Source of the DNA: an uncultured Spirochaetota bacterium
Lineage (GTDB): Bacteria; Spirochaetota; Brevinematia; Brevinematales; JAOACQ01
Length of the DNA: 64,000 nucleotides
Assembly: GCA_963835575.1 (NCBI GenBank)
Contig: CAWIGG010000002.1
Coordinates: 192,001 to 256,000, forward strand
Direction of reading: 5' to 3'
Numbering within the stretch: position 1 is the first letter of the stretch; every line of letters begins with the position of its first letter. The position numbers were made by a program. Below, piece by piece: positions 1 through 64,000 of the stretch.

Positions 1-3000
1 AAGCCGAGGAAAACCTGAGAAACAGCGAAGAGCGTTTCAGGGAAATTGCCCTGCTTCTTCCCACTATCGTTATTGAGACTGATATAAATCTTGGAATTAC
101 ATTTATTAATAAAGCGGGATATGAAGCCCTGGATCTTTCTGACAGCGAATTGAAAATGGATTTTTCACTTCTGGATTTTGTTTATACAGATGATAGAAAG
201 CGGTTTGAGGAATATTGCGAGAGAGTCGTTCAGGGGTCTTCCCCTAATTTCAGGGAATTCCGTATGTTTAAAAAGAGCGGCGCCATTATTACTTTAATGA
301 CTAAAGCCTCTCCGATTTACAAGAACGGCGCGATTGAAGGCATCCGCTGGAACGCGATTGATATAAAGCCTCTTATGTCCTCTGTCATTATGCCCGAAGA
401 CTCATTCTTTAAGGAACATAAATTCAGCCCCAGGGAAAAAGAGGTTTTGCTTCTCATGCTTCAGGGGCATAAAATTAAGGATATTGCGAAAAAGCTTTTT
501 ATCACTGAAAGTACTATTAAAGGCCATATCGGCGCGATCTATACGGAAATTGGAGTTAAAAACAGATCGGAATTTTTTCAACTTCTCGAAGAATACCAGA
601 TCAATCATTTCGGTTATCAATCATTCATCTTTTCCATGATCAGCAAATTGGTTAAAGATTAAAATGTTGACTGAAAACAGTCAGAAACGATGCAGTGAGC
701 CGTTGTGCTGAGCCGCTGAACTGAGCTTTTGTCTAAGCATTGCCGAACTGCCGAAAGTTAACAGTAAAATTAACGGTTTATGCGGAAATTTATCTATCGA
801 ATATTCGTTAAAACTTATTTTTGCAGCATTTTGTGATGTATAAAAAAATTCTCGTCATTCCAATATCCTACCACTGGTCGTATTAAATCCATACTCAAGG
901 TATTGTTAAATCAATACTATGAGTCTGTATTGGTTTTATCAGAAGCTTTTATAATAAATATCATCAATAATAGAAAGGGATAAATCCATTTCATAATAAA
1001 CTTTTAGAGGAGGAAAATTATGAAGAAAATCTTCGGTTTAAAGAGATTAATCGCTCTTTTGACCATTGTAACGGCGGGCATTGTTCTGTCTTTACTGATC
1101 GTTTCATGCTCGACGACGTTAAGTTCTGGCGGTAATAATGGTTTTACAAGCCAGAATACAGAAACAAAGGCTGGAGGCTATAACTACGGCGAAGCCATCC
1201 AGAAAGCCATTATGTTCTACGAGTTTCAGCGCTCCGGAAAAATTGCCGCGGCTGATACAAACGGCCGTATGAACTGGCGCGGAAGTAGCGATATCAATGA
1301 CGGCTCTGATAACGGCATTGACCTGACCGGAGGCTGGCATGACGCGGGAGACCATGTCAAGTTTAACCTGCCCATGGCTTATTCGATATCCATGCTCTCC
1401 TGGGCTATTTATGAATACGGTGCGGCCCTTCAGTCCAGCGGCCAGTACGGCTACCTGACAAACAACATCAAGTGGGCTACGGATTATCTATTGAAATGCA
1501 GCGCCGGGTCCTCATATTATTATCAGGTCGGCAGCGGCGGCAATGATCATTCATGGTGGGGCCCCTGCGAAGTAAACCCGACCGTCAGGCCTTCCTACGC
1601 TGTAACCAGCGGCGGTTCGGCTGTAGCCGGTGAAACCGCGGCAGCTTTAGCCGCTGCAGCATGGGTTTTCCAGAACGGCGGTAATACTTCCTATGCTTCC
1701 ACGCTTCTCAGCACCGCCGAATCCCTTTATACCAAAGCCGCTTCCTGGGCCAGCGATTCCGCTTACAACAGCGGAGCGGCCAGCGGTTTTTACACATCTT
1801 CCAGCTGGGCCGACGACCTTTCCTGGGCAGCCATCTGGATCTATCTGGCCGGCGGCGGCAGCAGCTATCTGACAGCCGCGCAATCATGGACCAACCAATG
1901 GCCTGTCGTTACCGGATCATCCACATGGGATTACAGATGGACACAGTGCTGGGATGACGTTCACTACGGCGCTGAACTTATGCTGGCTAAATTAACAGGC
2001 CTTGACGTTTACAGGACCGCTATCGAACAGAGCCTGCAGTTCTGGACAACCGGTTATAACGGATTAAAAGTTACCTATACACCGGGCGGACTGGCATGGC
2101 TTTCAGAATGGGGTTGTCTGCGGTATGCCGTGAGCGAATCGTTTCTCGCATTTGTTTACACCGATTGGACAAACGCCGCGACGAGTAATCTGAGCGCTTA
2201 CAAGAGCTTTGCGGAAAACCAGGTTAACTATGTTCTGGGATCCACGGGAAAAAGCTATGAAATCGGTTTCGGAAGCAGTTATCCCCAGCATCCTCATCAC
2301 AGGACTGCTGAAAGCTCCTGGGCCAATGATATGAACACGCCGTCTTACGCAAGGCATACGATTTACGGAGCGCTTGTCGGCGGTCCGGACGCAAGCGATA
2401 ATTTTACAGATGCAGTCGGTTCGTATCAATACACAGAACCGGCCTGCGATTATAACGCGGGTTTTATCGCCTCACTTTCCAGAATGTACAAAGTTTACGG
2501 CGGTACGCCGATTGCGAACTTTACAAGCGCCATAGAAGTTCCTTCCAATACCGAGTTTTTCGTGTCGACGCAGCCTAACAGCACCGGCGCCAACTATTTT
2601 GAGGTGGCTGCCTGGCTGAACAACATGTCCGGCTGGCCGGCAAGACCGGGTACGAATCTTTCGTTCCGGTATTTTATCAATACTTCTGAATTTGCGGCAA
2701 ACGGCTACAGCGATACCAATGTTGCCATCACAGTCAATTACAACCAGGGCAACGCAACGGTATCGCCCAATCTGGTAGCATGGGACGCCGCAAATCATAT
2801 CTACTATGTCAATGTAAGTTTCAACAATACGAATATCTATCCCGGCGGACAGGGCATTTACCAGATGCAGATCCAGTTCAGGGTAGCGGGTCCGCAGAAC
2901 ACCAGCTTCTGGAGCAACCAGAACAACTGGTCCTATCAGGGCGGCATGACTACCAACAGTCCCAACCAGAATGTGCCTGTGTATATGTCCGGTGTTAAGA

Positions 3001-63000: not shown

Positions 63001-64000
63001 TTAAGAAATCTAATAGAGAAATTGAGTTCTAAAGTTAAAAAAAGTAATTTTATACACAATGAAAAAGATAAATTATCTTCAGCTTTATCATCTTTATTAG
63101 GTATTGATGGACAATCACGAGAATGGAGATATTTAAATGGTGGTACACATGAAGAGGAAGACCGGGAAGAATTTGACCGACCAACAGTTCAAACAATTGT
63201 TGAATCTCTTGAAAAAACAGATGAGGTGATAAGGGCTGAATAAAGCATTAAAAATAATGAATAACTCCAAAATTTAATAAAAAAGAATTATTAATAAGTG
63301 AGGATATAAAAATGTTAAGATGGATATTCTTTTTGTTAAGTTTAATAGCATTCTGTATTCTAGCTTTTGTTCTATGTCCTGGAAAAGGATTTGCAATATC
63401 AGGTTTATTAATTGGAATTTACGGTTTTGGCGCAACAATTTATACTCTTCAAAAAGGAAACATTATTCGGGAAGCTGAATTTATTGAAAGACTATGTGGC
63501 GTTTTTGAAAGGCCAAATATCAGCAAACTTTATTATAAAATTGAATATAATCATTTGTCCTCTATTTTAGATGAATCAGAAGATGAGAAAGATTTAGATG
63601 AATTGATTAGTTTTTTTGATAGTATGGAGTATTATCATAAGAAAAAAATAATCTCCGATGATGAAGTGGAATTTGTTGCTGTTGAATTGTTGACAGTTTA
63701 TGAGAATGAAGTTGTCCGCCAATACATTAAGAAAGTTCAAAAATATTTCAATAAATATCAGCATGATATTATTCCATCAACTGGTTTTCAAGATTTAGCT
63801 GAGAAATTAATAAAAGAACCGAAATACAGTATTTATAAAAAGAAATGATCAGCGAAACTATGTTCATCTGTGGTTAATTAACCCTTAAGGCAGTATTTAA
63901 TATGGAAAGAACAATTGGGGTTGAATAAAAAAGCAAAATGTTAACAAATATTTTAGGGGGTATATATGAAGAAAATTTTCCTTACTCTATTATTCTTGGT

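What a model noticed while it worked through the whole genome (the two positions that open the first line are those of the whole stretch)
1020..64000. Twenty-five lipoprotein glycoside hydrolases share one near-identical C-terminal linker-CBM2 cassette
A 75-kb stretch encodes 21 of the genome's 25 enzymes (GH5, GH8, GH9, GH10, GH12, GH116, GH48, GH27 and others) that nearly all (23 of 25) begin with a lipoprotein-type signal peptide (hydrophobic stretch ending in Cys at residue 17-30) and all end with a Ser/Ala-rich linker, GGYA, a 100-residue CBM2 and C-[TS]-[TL]-Y. The CBM2 modules are 68-100% (median 81%) identical although the catalytic parts belong to unrelated families, so one cassette has been spread over the whole enzyme set. 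The 11 other genomes of the family hold 0 or 1 CBM2 (one in congener G023): this species alone has built up a cell-bound, cellulose-tethering cellulase set.
Evidence so far: pfam.tsv: 25 genes with CBM_2, each at residues L-102..L-3, scores 95-101 bits; alignment of the 25 modules and linkers; N-termini read for 25: 23 have a hydrophobic stretch followed by Cys, 17 of them fit the strict pattern [LVIFMA][ASTVILFG][GASTC]C; g00192 (start doubtful) and g00619 (Ala-x-Ala type) do not. Six-frame search with PF00553 in the 12 genomes of the family: 25 matches here, 1 in G023, 0 in the other 10; relatives.tsv (a floor) has CBM_2 in 14 of 2011 genomes of the phylum. Best Swiss-Prot hits of catalytic parts are to Ruminiclostridium, Acetivibrio, Acidothermus, Cellvibrio at 37-57%. 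GH48-CBM2 (g00619) lies inside a secretin/T2SS-F/prepilin/peptidase A24 cluster g00612-g006 The finding spans contig positions 193020 to 267869; this window holds only 193020 to 256000 of it. [...]
(Added by a program. Inside this text positions count along the whole contig: contig position 192,001 is position 1 of the stretch shown here. "Call 12" and the like, gene names such as g00115 and contig names such as C1 are that model's own, and its searches are not shown. The text may have been shortened before it was handed on; [...] marks where a part breaks off. The agent that wrote the report below was given it as the finding of a first reader that could run no searches.)

Follow-up and report, generated by a model that had tools for sequence, protein, structure and literature searches.

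The report
Spirochete cellulase island with shared CBM2 tail
A spirochete genome carries 25 plant-fibre-degrading enzymes that nearly all start with a membrane-lipid anchor signal and all end in the same serine-rich tether plus cellulose-binding module, a standardised design resembling known systems in other bacteria but new in its details and in this lineage.

Summary
A six-frame search finds 25 CBM2 modules in this genome: 19 in the window, 2 just downstream and 4 elsewhere. There is 1 in one congener and none in the other 33 genomes of the order.

All 25 genes end in a 47-123-residue Ser/Ala/Val linker and a 106-residue CBM2a-type module. 23 have a Cys after a hydrophobic signal stretch.

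"Near-identical" is overstated. Modules are 69-100% identical as protein (median 81%) but only 76% as DNA. Median dS is 1.4 and dN/dS is 0.07. The spread is therefore old and kept by purifying selection, with some later cassette exchange.

The 25 modules form one clade and sit on at least 10 unrelated catalytic families.

Relatives use CBM64 in this position: an orthologous GH9 in the congener is collinear up to the linker, then carries CBM64 instead of CBM2.

A GT39/GT87 glycosyltransferase pair, found in no other genome of the family, closes the island and may O-mannosylate the linkers.

The closest analogues are the Cellvibrionaceae systems (polyserine linkers, CBM2, lipobox) and the Spirochaeta thermophila CBM64 enzymes.

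Verdict: a new variant of a known kind. Cell-surface anchoring and cellulose binding are inferred, not shown.

The parts
1020..3677 (+). GH9-CBM3-linker-CBM2 lipoprotein gene (Cys at residue 30)
   Evidence: Pfam; N-terminus. Its linker and CBM2 are 100% identical in DNA to the next gene.
4071..6737 (+). GH9-linker-CBM2 lipoprotein gene, orthologue of the G004 GH9-CBM3-CBM64
   Evidence: Pfam. 69% identical over 727 aa to the G004 GH9, collinear up to the linker and then different.
7264..9783 (+). GH9-CBM3-linker-CBM2 lipoprotein gene
9895..11736 (+). GH5-linker-CBM2 lipoprotein gene (relaxed lipobox FSTC)
12170..13990 (+). Gene with no Pfam catalytic family at E<=1e-5 (a precomputed PF26410 label is listed for P0006), then linker and CBM2; lipoprotein-type start
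   Evidence: (P0006 carries PF26410)
14057..16921 (+). GH116 (N-terminal and catalytic domains)-linker-CBM2 lipoprotein gene; the likely start is the internal ATG about 48 nt in
17035..18312 (+). GH12-linker-CBM2 lipoprotein gene
18564..21161 (+). GH9-CBM3-linker-CBM2 lipoprotein gene
21405..23966 (+). GH9-CBM3-linker-CBM2 lipoprotein gene
   Evidence: Best solved relatives are entries deposited as Cel9M and endoglucanase 9G.
24015..25985 (+). GH5-linker-CBM64-linker-CBM2 gene (relaxed lipobox LTC)
   Evidence: Its CBM64 is 74% identical to a G010 CBM64.
26207..29501 (+). Histidine kinase-receiver-GGDEF gene inside the island, split into two frames at about 28570
   Evidence: Pfam; frame change at a CCCGGGG run
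30695..33322 (+). GH9-CBM3-linker-CBM2 gene (relaxed lipobox ASC)
33365..35296 (+). GH5 (weak Pfam match)-linker-CBM2 lipoprotein gene
35617..37428 (+). GH5-linker-CBM2 gene (relaxed lipobox AGC)
37514..39355 (+). GH5-linker-CBM2 lipoprotein gene
39374..41488 (+). Unassigned catalytic part-linker-CBM64-linker-CBM2 gene (relaxed lipobox FAC)
41711..43636 (+). GH10-linker-CBM64-linker-CBM2 gene (relaxed lipobox WSC)
43851..45985 (+). GH10-CBM3-linker-CBM2 gene. A lipoprotein signal is encoded in another frame and cut off by a 1-nt frameshift near 43944.
   Evidence: P0030, from another contig, reads through and is identical over all 675 downstream residues. Pfam.
46536..49238 (+). Unassigned catalytic part (weak arabinofuranosidase-like match)-CBM6-linker-CBM2 lipoprotein gene
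49561..51351 (+). GH8-linker-CBM2 lipoprotein gene, the last enzyme gene in the window
52091..53869 (-). GT39 (PMT-type) membrane glycosyltransferase with the motif FDE
   Evidence: Pfam PMT, PMT_2 and PMT_4TMC. NCBIfam Pmt model 92.7 bits, below its cut-off of 800. Not found in 0 of 11 other family genomes. Nearest relatives are Bacillota GT39 at 43-49%.
53866..55443 (-). GT87-like membrane glycosyltransferase, overlapping the GT39 gene by 4 nt
   Evidence: Pfam GT87, 32.9 bits against a cut-off of 25. Several GT39 homologues are fused to a GT87 domain.

Best explanation
The window holds the core of a roughly 75-kb plant-cell-wall-degrading island of a spirochete. Its enzymes share one chassis:
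- a lipoprotein signal peptide;
- the catalytic module, sometimes with CBM3, CBM6, CBM64 or PA14;
- a 47-123-residue Ser/Ala/Val linker made of degenerate 13-residue repeats;
- a 106-residue CBM2a-type module at the very end.

**Proposed mechanism.** The proteins are exported, lipidated by Lgt and LspA, and held in the outer membrane by the N-terminal lipid. The CBM2 on its long tether binds crystalline cellulose. The cell is thereby fixed to the fibre, with a mixed coat of cellulases, hemicellulases and oligosaccharide-cleaving enzymes working next to the surface.

**Proposed history.** One CBM2 lineage, nearest to modules of uncultured Bacillota and Chloroflexota and to three unplaced metagenome lipoproteins, was joined to at least 10 unrelated catalytic families by recombination in the linker. 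This happened long ago. The module has been kept by strong purifying selection, and cassettes are still occasionally exchanged. In this genome CBM2 holds the terminal position that CBM64 holds in relatives. The adjacent GT39/GT87 pair probably O-mannosylates the linkers.

**Shown here:** domain content, counts, phylogeny, divergence, distribution. **Inferred:** lipidation, surface exposure, cellulose binding, glycosylation.
For: **Chassis.** Pfam domains. All 25 genes have the linker and a 106-aa module. 23 of 25 have a Cys after a hydrophobic stretch. 16 of 25 pass a strict rule that 4.6% of all long frames pass. Lgt and LspA are each present once. The organism is a spirochete: FlaA gives 4 matches, and none of the 14 control genomes gives any.

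**CBM2a type.** The best solved match is 3ndy/3ndz 'Endoglucanase D' (E 3.5e-33), followed by 1exg. W12 and W49 are present in 25 of 25, and position 67 is Tyr or Phe in 25 of 25. These align with the aromatic positions of the solved modules.

**Single lineage.** The 25 modules form one clade, SH-aLRT 82, among 202 modules.

**Old spread under constraint.** Median dN 0.123, median dS 1.41, dN/dS 0.07.

**Cassette exchange.**
- Genes at 1020 and 4071: catalytic dS 0.65, cassette dS 0.
- C2:205679 and C2:226985: catalytic parts 39% identical, modules 96% identical.
- C2:263805 and C2:267558: catalytic parts 93% identical, modules 78% identical.

**Swap with CBM64.** The G004 GH9 is collinear with the window's GH9 up to '...VKIYGNEP', then carries a poly-Ser linker and CBM64. 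CBM64 occurs in 5 of 12 family genomes, with 9 matches in G010.

**Glycosylation.** GT39 and GT87 lie at the island's end and were found in no other family genome. In Cellulomonas, GT-39 enzymes mannosylate the linker between GH6 and CBM2a with up to 65 hexoses (PMC11727336, passages read).
Against: - No experiment supports lipidation, surface exposure, binding or activity.
- 7 of the 23 Cys-bearing N-termini fail the strict lipobox rule.
- GH48, usually a key exoglucanase, has an ordinary Ala-x-Ala signal and would not be lipid-anchored.
- The module lacks the N-terminal Cys that Chloroflexota-type relatives have (CAVDY there, YAVNY here). Only 16 of 25 have a second Cys, at position 18, so the usual disulfide is not conserved.
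- On glycosylation: the congener G004 has a poly-Ser linker but no GT39. The GT39 scores far below the NCBIfam Pmt equivalog cut-off, 92.7 against 800. No polyprenol-phosphate-mannose synthase was looked for.
- My first idea that the island grew at an ancestral two-gene locus shared with G004 was refuted. The regulator beside it is only a 39% paralogue, and the G004 flanks map to contig C3 of G000.
Confidence: 0.62

Rival explanations
1. The enzymes are not retained on the cell. The lipoprotein signal only serves export, and the proteins are shed or leave on outer-membrane vesicles. CBM2 then acts as in free cellulases, targeting soluble or vesicle-borne enzymes to cellulose.
For: - In the Teredinibacter turnerae secretome table, enzymes predicted to be lipoproteins were found in spent medium (PMC2699552, passages read).
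- A paper title and abstract report that membrane vesicles contribute to cellulose degradation in T. turnerae (PMC10996688, search listing only).
- GH48 here has a non-lipoprotein signal.
- A secretin/T2SS-E/T2SS-F/A24 cluster lies beside GH48.
Against: 23 of 25 carry the Cys, a strong enrichment over the genome background. Such a uniform feature suggests it has a role in the mature protein. Vesicle display would still be membrane anchoring.
Confidence: 0.22
2. The strictly C-terminal cassette with its invariant final Tyr is mainly a sorting or export signal for crossing the outer membrane, comparable in logic to C-terminal secretion domains, and cellulose binding is secondary.
For: - The cassette is always at the extreme C-terminus and always ends in Tyr, 25 of 25.
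- dN/dS is very low, 0.07.
- The G004 module and three metagenome lipoproteins also end in Tyr.
Against: - It is a full CBM2 with the aromatic binding positions kept.
- Among 91 outside proteins with a C-terminal CBM2, 15 end in Tyr, and most of these have Pro/Thr linkers and no clear lipobox. The Tyr is therefore not tied to lipoproteins.
- Relatives achieve the same architecture with the unrelated CBM64.
- No known C-terminal sorting domain appeared in Pfam scans of these proteins at E<=1e-5.
Confidence: 0.05
3. The island is a recent wholesale import from a cellulolytic Bacillota-like donor, and the uniform cassette was already present on the donor's enzymes rather than spread within this lineage.
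For: - The nearest named CBM2 carriers are uncultured Bacillota and Anaerolineae MAGs that hold many CBM2 enzymes.
- GT39 is nearest to Bacillota enzymes.
- GH48 and GT39 were found in no other family genome.
- The enzyme genes have 46-51% GC (one off-island gene 43%, another 56%) against about 42% for the contigs.
Against: - The outside modules are only 57-72% identical. They have Pro/Thr linkers and ordinary signal peptides.
- The 25 modules are one clade with saturated synonymous divergence.
- GH9-CBM3 and GH5 have orthologues or close relatives in the family.
- GC in 5-kb windows of the same contig ranges from 35 to 50%, so composition is not decisive.
Confidence: 0.1
4. The repeated cassette is an assembly artefact: collapsed or chimeric repeats.
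For: Two frameshifts in the window (GH10 start and the histidine kinase) hint at base-level errors in the assembly.
Against: 299 of 300 module pairs differ, most of them heavily at synonymous sites. Every copy is in frame with its own linker and catalytic part. Database proteins matching many of these genes exist.
Confidence: 0.01

Closest known systems
Carbohydrase systems of Cellvibrionaceae (Saccharophagus degradans, Teredinibacter turnerae, Cellvibrio japonicus)
   Same: - Diderm bacteria with many modular enzymes.
- Serine-rich linkers instead of Pro/Thr linkers.
- Crystalline-cellulose-binding CBM2 used as a 'universal receptor' even on non-cellulases.
- Lipobox signals on many carbohydrases (34 in S. 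degradans, 23 in T. turnerae), proposed there as a Gram-negative counterpart of the cellulosome.

Sources: PMC2386152 and PMC2699552, passages read.
   Different: - There the linkers are about 80-83% Ser and about 39-44 residues long. Here they are 50% Ser with 23% Ala and 12% Val, have a 13-residue period with Arg, and a median length of 91 residues.
- There CBM2 is often paired with CBM10 and can be N-terminal. In the tables I read, lipobox enzymes and CBM2 enzymes are mostly different proteins.
- Here the lipobox and a strictly C-terminal CBM2 are on the same polypeptide in 23 of 25.
- The phylum is different, and 21 of the 25 genes are clustered in about 75 kb.
- CBM10 was not searched for here.
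Spirochaeta thermophila glycoside hydrolases with CBM64
   Same: A spirochete in which a type-A cellulose-binding module is attached to glycoside hydrolases. CBM64 is described as the cellulose-binding module of an S. thermophila glycoside hydrolase (PMC7867066, passages read). That several S. thermophila enzymes share it at the C-terminus is recalled from the genome paper, which I could not read. CBM64 also occurs here (3 genes) and in relatives.
   Different: Here the terminal module is CBM2, and CBM64 is only internal in 3 genes.
Actinobacterial GT-39 O-mannosylation of cellulase linkers (Cellulomonas)
   Same: A GT39 enzyme in an organism whose cellulases have a Ser/Thr-rich linker joined to a CBM2a. 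In Cellulomonas the linker is the glycosylated part, and the 'DE motif' is conserved in GT-39 proteins (PMC11727336, passages read). The window's GT39 has FDE.
   Different: - Here the host is a diderm spirochete.
- The GT39 is nearest to Bacillota enzymes.
- It is paired with a GT87-like gene.
- It scores below the NCBIfam Pmt cut-off.
- No glycosylation has been shown.
Cellulosomes of Bacillota
   Same: A standard module on many different enzymes that brings them together on the cell surface and on cellulose.
   Different: No dockerin or cohesin appeared in the Pfam scans of these proteins. Each enzyme would be anchored singly, by lipid and by its own CBM, rather than through a scaffoldin.

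Membership tests
CBM2 (Pfam PF00553), CBM2a subtype | Match to the family model over the curated cut-off | tested here: met
   25 of 25, 101-107 bits in six-frame search against a cut-off of 24; 95-101 bits on the proteins
CBM2 (Pfam PF00553), CBM2a subtype | Three surface aromatic residues of the flat cellulose-binding face | tested here: met
   W12 in 25/25, W49 in 25/25, position 67 Tyr in 20 and Phe in 5. These align to the aromatic positions of 3ndy and 1exg. That these are the binding residues is recalled knowledge.
CBM2 (Pfam PF00553), CBM2a subtype | Disulfide between a Cys at the start and a Cys at the end of the module | tested here: not met
   The C-terminal Cys is in 25/25, but the N-terminal place holds Tyr (YAVNY, against CAVDY in P0001-P0005). 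A different Cys at position 18 occurs in 16 of 25.
CBM2 (Pfam PF00553), CBM2a subtype | Binding to crystalline cellulose | not testable with these tools
   Needs a binding assay
Bacterial lipoprotein (signal peptidase II substrate) | Signal peptide ending in a lipobox with invariant Cys | tested here: met
   23 of 25 have a Cys after a hydrophobic stretch; 16 pass a strict rule; 21 match a relaxed four-residue pattern. One further gene has the lipobox in a shifted frame. GH48 does not have one.
Bacterial lipoprotein (signal peptidase II substrate) | Lgt and LspA encoded in the genome | tested here: met
   One match each over the cut-off
Bacterial lipoprotein (signal peptidase II substrate) | Lipid modification and surface exposure | not testable with these tools
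   Needs labelling, globomycin treatment or surface proteolysis
Cellvibrionaceae-type polyserine-linker carbohydrases | Linkers made almost wholly of Ser (about 80%) | tested here: not met
   Ser 49.8%, Ala 23.4%, Val 11.5%, Arg 3.5% over 2303 linker residues, with a 13-residue period
Cellvibrionaceae-type polyserine-linker carbohydrases | CBM2 combined with CBM10 | not tested
   No CBM10 model was searched. None appeared in Pfam scans of the island proteins at E<=1e-5.
Spirochaete CBM64-terminated glycoside hydrolases | CBM64 as the C-terminal module | tested here: not met
   In G000, CBM64 is internal in 3 genes and followed by linker and CBM2. The feature is met in G004 and G010.
Cellulosome | Dockerin on the enzymes | tested here: not met
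   No dockerin or cohesin family among Pfam hits at E<=1e-5 for the 26 window proteins and 23 further proteins scanned
GT39 protein O-mannosyltransferase | PMT and PMT_4TMC domains over the cut-off | tested here: met
   PF02366 59.9 bits (cut-off 22.7); PF16192 84.3 bits (cut-off 32.4)
GT39 protein O-mannosyltransferase | Conserved Asp-Glu motif in the first loop | tested here: inconclusive
   The sequence has ...YFDEIY..., but it was not aligned to a characterised GT39
GT39 protein O-mannosyltransferase | NCBIfam Pmt equivalog score | tested here: not met
   92.7 bits against a cut-off of 800
GT39 protein O-mannosyltransferase | Mannosylation of Ser/Thr in secreted proteins | not testable with these tools
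   Needs mass spectrometry or a reporter assay

The most novel reading that the evidence does not exclude
This spirochete coats itself with enzymes tethered at both ends: lipid at the N-terminus and CBM2 at the C-terminus. Their unusual 13-residue-repeat Ser/Ala/Val linkers are O-mannosylated in the periplasm or at the surface by a horizontally acquired GT39/GT87 pair. That would be a protein O-mannosylation system dedicated to a cellulase set in a diderm bacterium outside the Actinobacteria, and a scaffoldin-free alternative to the cellulosome that doubles as the cell's adhesin for cellulose.
Probability: 0.2. Interest if true: 0.72.

Novelty: new variant of a known kind. Interest (0 to 1): 0.55.

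Why it matters
- **Few spirochetes are known to attack crystalline cellulose.** This genome has a full set (GH48, eight GH9 genes with CBM2, GH5, GH8, GH12, plus hemicellulases) built on one chassis. It is a good candidate for a new cellulolytic lineage and for a third way, beside cellulosomes and free enzymes, of organising cellulases on a diderm cell.
- **It is a clean natural experiment in module replacement.** Close relatives use CBM64 where this genome uses CBM2, with the breakpoint in the linker.
- **It shows how a low-complexity linker can serve as the joint for domain shuffling across a whole enzyme set.**
- **The neighbouring GT39/GT87 pair gives a directly testable link** between linker glycosylation and cellulase function outside the Actinobacteria.
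- **The module itself is a ready-made, highly constrained cellulose tag.**

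Tried and rejected
1. **Synteny with the congener.** I first read the G004 two-gene locus (regulator, GH9-CBM64, GH5-CBM2) as the ancestral site of the island. This is rejected. The regulator belongs to a large paralogous family (31 matches in G000), and the copy beside the island is only 39% identical. The two G004 flanking genes map to G000 contig C3, about 1.4 kb apart.
2. **Island flanks in congeners.** The upstream neighbour has only 28-30% matches, and the downstream one lies elsewhere. The insertion site could not be resolved. A first try with a 40-residue query was uninformative.
3. **AU test on all 202 modules.** It did not finish in two 300-s runs. A 61-row subset (all 25 own modules, the G004 module, 19 near rows and 16 of the remaining rows drawn at random) finished. 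It does not reject a clade of the 25 modules plus the G004 module (p-AU 0.51). One acquisition in a genus ancestor and two separate acquisitions both remain possible.
4. **Base composition as a sign of transfer.** It is not decisive: 5-kb windows on the contig range from 35 to 50% GC.
5. **Terminal Tyr as a lipoprotein-linked signal.** Not supported.
6. **Public reads.** No RNA holder was listed. The one DNA holder gave a single 176-bp contig that does not reach the GH10 frameshift, so neither expression nor the frameshift could be checked.
7. **The other strong CBM2 hits in the phylum.** G096 and G194 do not have this cassette: an internal CBM2 in one, no Ser linker in the other.
8. **GH5 comparison.** The window's GH5-CBM64-CBM2 and the G010 GH5-CBM64-CBM64 are not orthologous in the catalytic part; only the CBM64 modules match.
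10. **Literature.** Searches for a spirochete with CBM2 and GH48, or for spirochete lipoprotein cellulases, turned up no description of such a system. A landfill metagenome paper lists no CBM2 in its Spirochaetes bin (PMC5541161, passages read). A termite MAG survey gave no passage on CBM64, GH48 or lipoproteins (PMC11481507, find only). The S. thermophila genome paper is not in the library.

Full report
**What is in the window.** All large genes from 1020 to 51351 lie on the + strand. Nineteen of them are glycoside hydrolases or related enzymes that end in a CBM2:
- six GH9, five of them with a Pfam CBM3 match;
- five GH5;
- one each of GH116, GH12 and GH8;
- two GH10;
- one CBM6 protein with an unassigned catalytic part;
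- two further genes with no Pfam catalytic family.

Three genes carry an internal CBM64. The one non-enzyme gene inside the run is a histidine kinase-receiver-GGDEF gene, split into two frames. After the last enzyme gene come a small secreted protein, a GT39 (PMT-type) gene and a GT87-like gene on the - strand. From about 56 kb on there are low-GC restriction-modification and ATPase genes that have nothing to do with the finding.

The organism is a spirochete. The spirochete flagellar sheath family FlaA gives 4 matches in the genome and none in the 14 control genomes.

**Checking the counts.**
- The CBM2 model gives 25 matches in the 4.39-Mb genome. 19 are in the window, 2 lie 8-12 kb further on, and 4 are elsewhere.
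- The two downstream genes are GH9 and GH9-PA14. The four others are GH48, GH5, GH27 and a GH30-like xylanase.
- Among relatives, CBM2 is found in 2 of 12 family genomes (25 matches here, 1 in congener G004), in the same 2 of 35 order genomes, and in 12 of 401 sampled phylum genomes. None but this one has more than 2.
- The two other strong phylum hits are a different kind of protein.

**The cassette.**
- In all 25 genes the last 106 residues are the module. It is preceded by GGYA in 23 genes and SGYA in 2, and it ends C-x-x-Y.
- Linkers are 47-123 residues long, median 91. They are 50% Ser, 23% Ala, 12% Val and 3.5% Arg.
- The linkers are degenerate tandem repeats of 39 nt, or 13 residues, of the type VSSSRSS(V/A)ASS(V/A)A. 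The spacing between successive Arg/Lys residues is 13 in 30 of 62 cases. All six Ser codons are used.
- The module is of the CBM2a kind. The best solved relative is the CBM2 of an entry named Endoglucanase D (3ndy/3ndz, E 3.5e-33), followed by the classic exoglucanase/xylanase module 1exg. The aromatic positions are kept: W12 and W49 in 25 of 25, Tyr or Phe at position 67 in 25 of 25.
- The N-terminal Cys of Chloroflexota-type relatives is replaced by Tyr. A different Cys at position 18 is present in 16 of 25.

**The N-termini.**
- 23 of 25 have a hydrophobic stretch followed by Cys.
- A strict rule of my own (basic n-region, uncharged hydrophobic core, classical lipobox) passes 16 of 25, against 109 of 2380 long open frames genome-wide. 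The other seven fail only on relaxed lipobox positions or a Gln/Pro in the core.
- The residue after the Cys is Ser in 17 of the 21 that match a relaxed pattern, and never Asp.
- GH48 has an Ala-x-Ala signal.
- The GH10 gene with the 'doubtful start' encodes a complete lipoprotein signal in another frame, cut off by a 1-nt shift directly after ...LWSCS. A database protein from another contig (P0030) reads through and is identical over all 675 downstream residues.
- Lgt and LspA are present.

**How old and how uniform.** Protein identity among modules is 69-100%, median 81%. DNA identity is only 65-100%, median 76%, and a single pair is identical. By Nei-Gojobori counts the median dN is 0.12 and the median dS is 1.41. 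74 of 300 pairs are saturated, and the median dN/dS is 0.07. The cassette is therefore not a recent copy-and-paste. It is an old family kept nearly constant by selection.

**One origin, many fusions, continuing exchange.**
- In a tree of 202 CBM2 modules, the 25 form one clade (SH-aLRT 82). Its nearest neighbours are P0060 and P0043, with support 95 for the set of 27. Next come P0062, P0051, P0065 and P0070.
- Within the clade there are two sequence subtypes, and each sits on unrelated catalytic families.
- Cassette and catalytic part disagree in several pairs. The two tandem GH9 genes at 1020 and 4071 differ at dS 0.65 in the catalytic part but share an identical linker and module, 348 nt of identical linker DNA. 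Two GH5-like genes only 39% identical carry modules 96% identical. Two GH9 genes 93% identical carry modules only 78% identical.
- This is what exchange by recombination or conversion at the linker would give.
- Long shared DNA words in the linkers are the exception: 14 of 300 pairs share 30 nt or more. The linker is a plausible joint but not a proven one.

**Relatives use CBM64.**
- CBM64 occurs in 5 of 12 family genomes, with 9 matches in G010, and in no other family of the order.
- In G010 and G004 it is the last module of GH9 and GH5 enzymes that also have lipoprotein-type starts.
- The G004 GH9 is 69% identical to the window's second GH9 over 727 residues, collinear through GH9 and CBM3 up to '...VKIYGNEP'. 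Then the two part: poly-Ser and CBM64 in G004, the Ser/Ala/Val repeat and CBM2 here.
- The one CBM2 gene of G004 is a lipoprotein GH5 with a poly-Ser linker. Its module is only 50-59% identical to the 25 and sits on a long branch near Bacillota modules. An AU test on a 61-row subset does not reject joining it to the 25 (p 0.51).

**Where the module came from.**
- The closest named carriers are uncultured Bacillota and Anaerolineae MAGs (57-69% in tblastn), then Actinomycetes. Their enzymes have Pro/Thr linkers and ordinary signal peptides.
- Three metagenome proteins of unknown organisms (P0043, P0051, P0060; 59-72% identical) share the whole design: lipobox, Ser-rich linker, CBM2 ending C-x-x-Y. 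P0051 and P0060 are listed with the same longest-contig length.
- The design therefore exists outside this genome, in organisms I could not place.

**The glycosyltransferase pair.**
- The GT39 gene (52091-53869) and the GT87-like gene (53866-55443) overlap by 4 nt.
- With this protein as query, no match was found in the other 11 family genomes. Three genomes of one distant family among 400 other phylum genomes gave strong matches.
- The nearest relatives are Bacillota GT39 proteins at 43-49%, and several homologues are fused to a GT87 domain.
- In Cellulomonas, GT-39 enzymes mannosylate the linker between a GH6 module and a CBM2a with up to 65 hexoses (PMC11727336, passages read).
- The position of the pair at the end of an island full of Ser-rich linkers makes linker O-mannosylation a fair guess, about 0.3. 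Against it: G004 has a poly-Ser linker without GT39, and the protein is far below the NCBIfam Pmt equivalog score.

**Secretion cluster.** The secretin has 51-60% matches in four family genomes that lack GH48 and none in the four congeners. The cluster is older than GH48's arrival, and a functional link is open.

**Comparison with what is known.**
- The nearest described systems are those of Saccharophagus degradans, Teredinibacter turnerae and Cellvibrio japonicus. They have polyserine linkers, CBM2 with CBM10 as a general cellulose receptor, and lipobox anchoring of many carbohydrases (PMC2386152, PMC2699552; passages read).
- This system differs from them in linker chemistry and periodicity, in the strict C-terminal place of one CBM2 lineage, in having the lipobox and CBM2 on the same protein, in tight clustering, and in phylum.
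- It also parallels the CBM64 enzymes of Spirochaeta thermophila (and recalled knowledge of the genome paper).
- It is not a cellulosome: no dockerin was found.

**Verdict.** The finding is a real, well-delimited and coherent feature. The design principle is known, but this realisation of it is new: a spirochete, both ends tethered, a 13-residue-repeat linker, a CBM64-to-CBM2 replacement, and an adjacent GT39/GT87 pair. Function at the cell surface remains to be shown.

Noticed in passing
window 28480-28660: The histidine kinase-receiver-GGDEF gene inside the island is split. The receiver domain continues in another frame after a CCCGGGG run (DYNMPG | LTGSEV). This is either a real frameshift or an assembly error.
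   Followed up: partly
window 43851-43946: The second GH10 gene has an intact lipoprotein signal in frame +1 that ends in a stop directly after ...LWSCS. P0030, from another contig, reads through.
   Followed up: partly
window 56000-64000 and L009:1-6000: A low-GC (32-39%) block separates the main run of enzyme genes from the last two GH9-CBM2 genes. It holds an Eco57I-type restriction-methylase, an SMC/AAA ATPase, an S1/P1 nuclease and a RhuM-family gene, and looks like an inserted defence or mobile islet.
   Followed up: no
G000 C2:1773604-1775388, C2:1806877-1807602, C3:144519-146543: Three further open frames carry the same SSS(R/L)-type repeat linker but no CBM2. Two end in ...WG(V/I)EP. 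The linker type is therefore not exclusive to the CBM2 cassette.
   Followed up: no
all 25 modules, position 18 and first residues: The usual N-terminal Cys of CBM2a is replaced by Tyr, while a Cys/Val polymorphism (16 against 9) sits at position 18. Whether Cys18 pairs with the invariant C-terminal Cys is unknown.
   Followed up: partly
L009:4680-6005 and L010:16421-18001: A PpiC-type rotamase (SurA-like, with a lipoprotein-type start) lies close to the last island genes, and another lies close to GH48. They could be periplasmic folding helpers for the enzymes.
   Followed up: no
G000 genome-wide: The sugar-binding/LuxR-type regulator beside the island belongs to a very large family: 31 matches in G000, 16-17 in G001 and G002, 6 in G004 and 2 in G003.
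   Followed up: partly
L009:11989-15345 (-): A 1118-residue lipoprotein with a Laminin_G_3 (concanavalin-like) domain closes the island on the far side. It has no CBM2.
   Followed up: no
window 52091-52600 (N-terminal part of GT39): The GT39 has about 130 extra residues before the FDE motif. Several homologues carry an F5/8 type C (discoidin) domain by their precomputed Pfam labels, which hints at a carbohydrate-binding insert.
   Followed up: no
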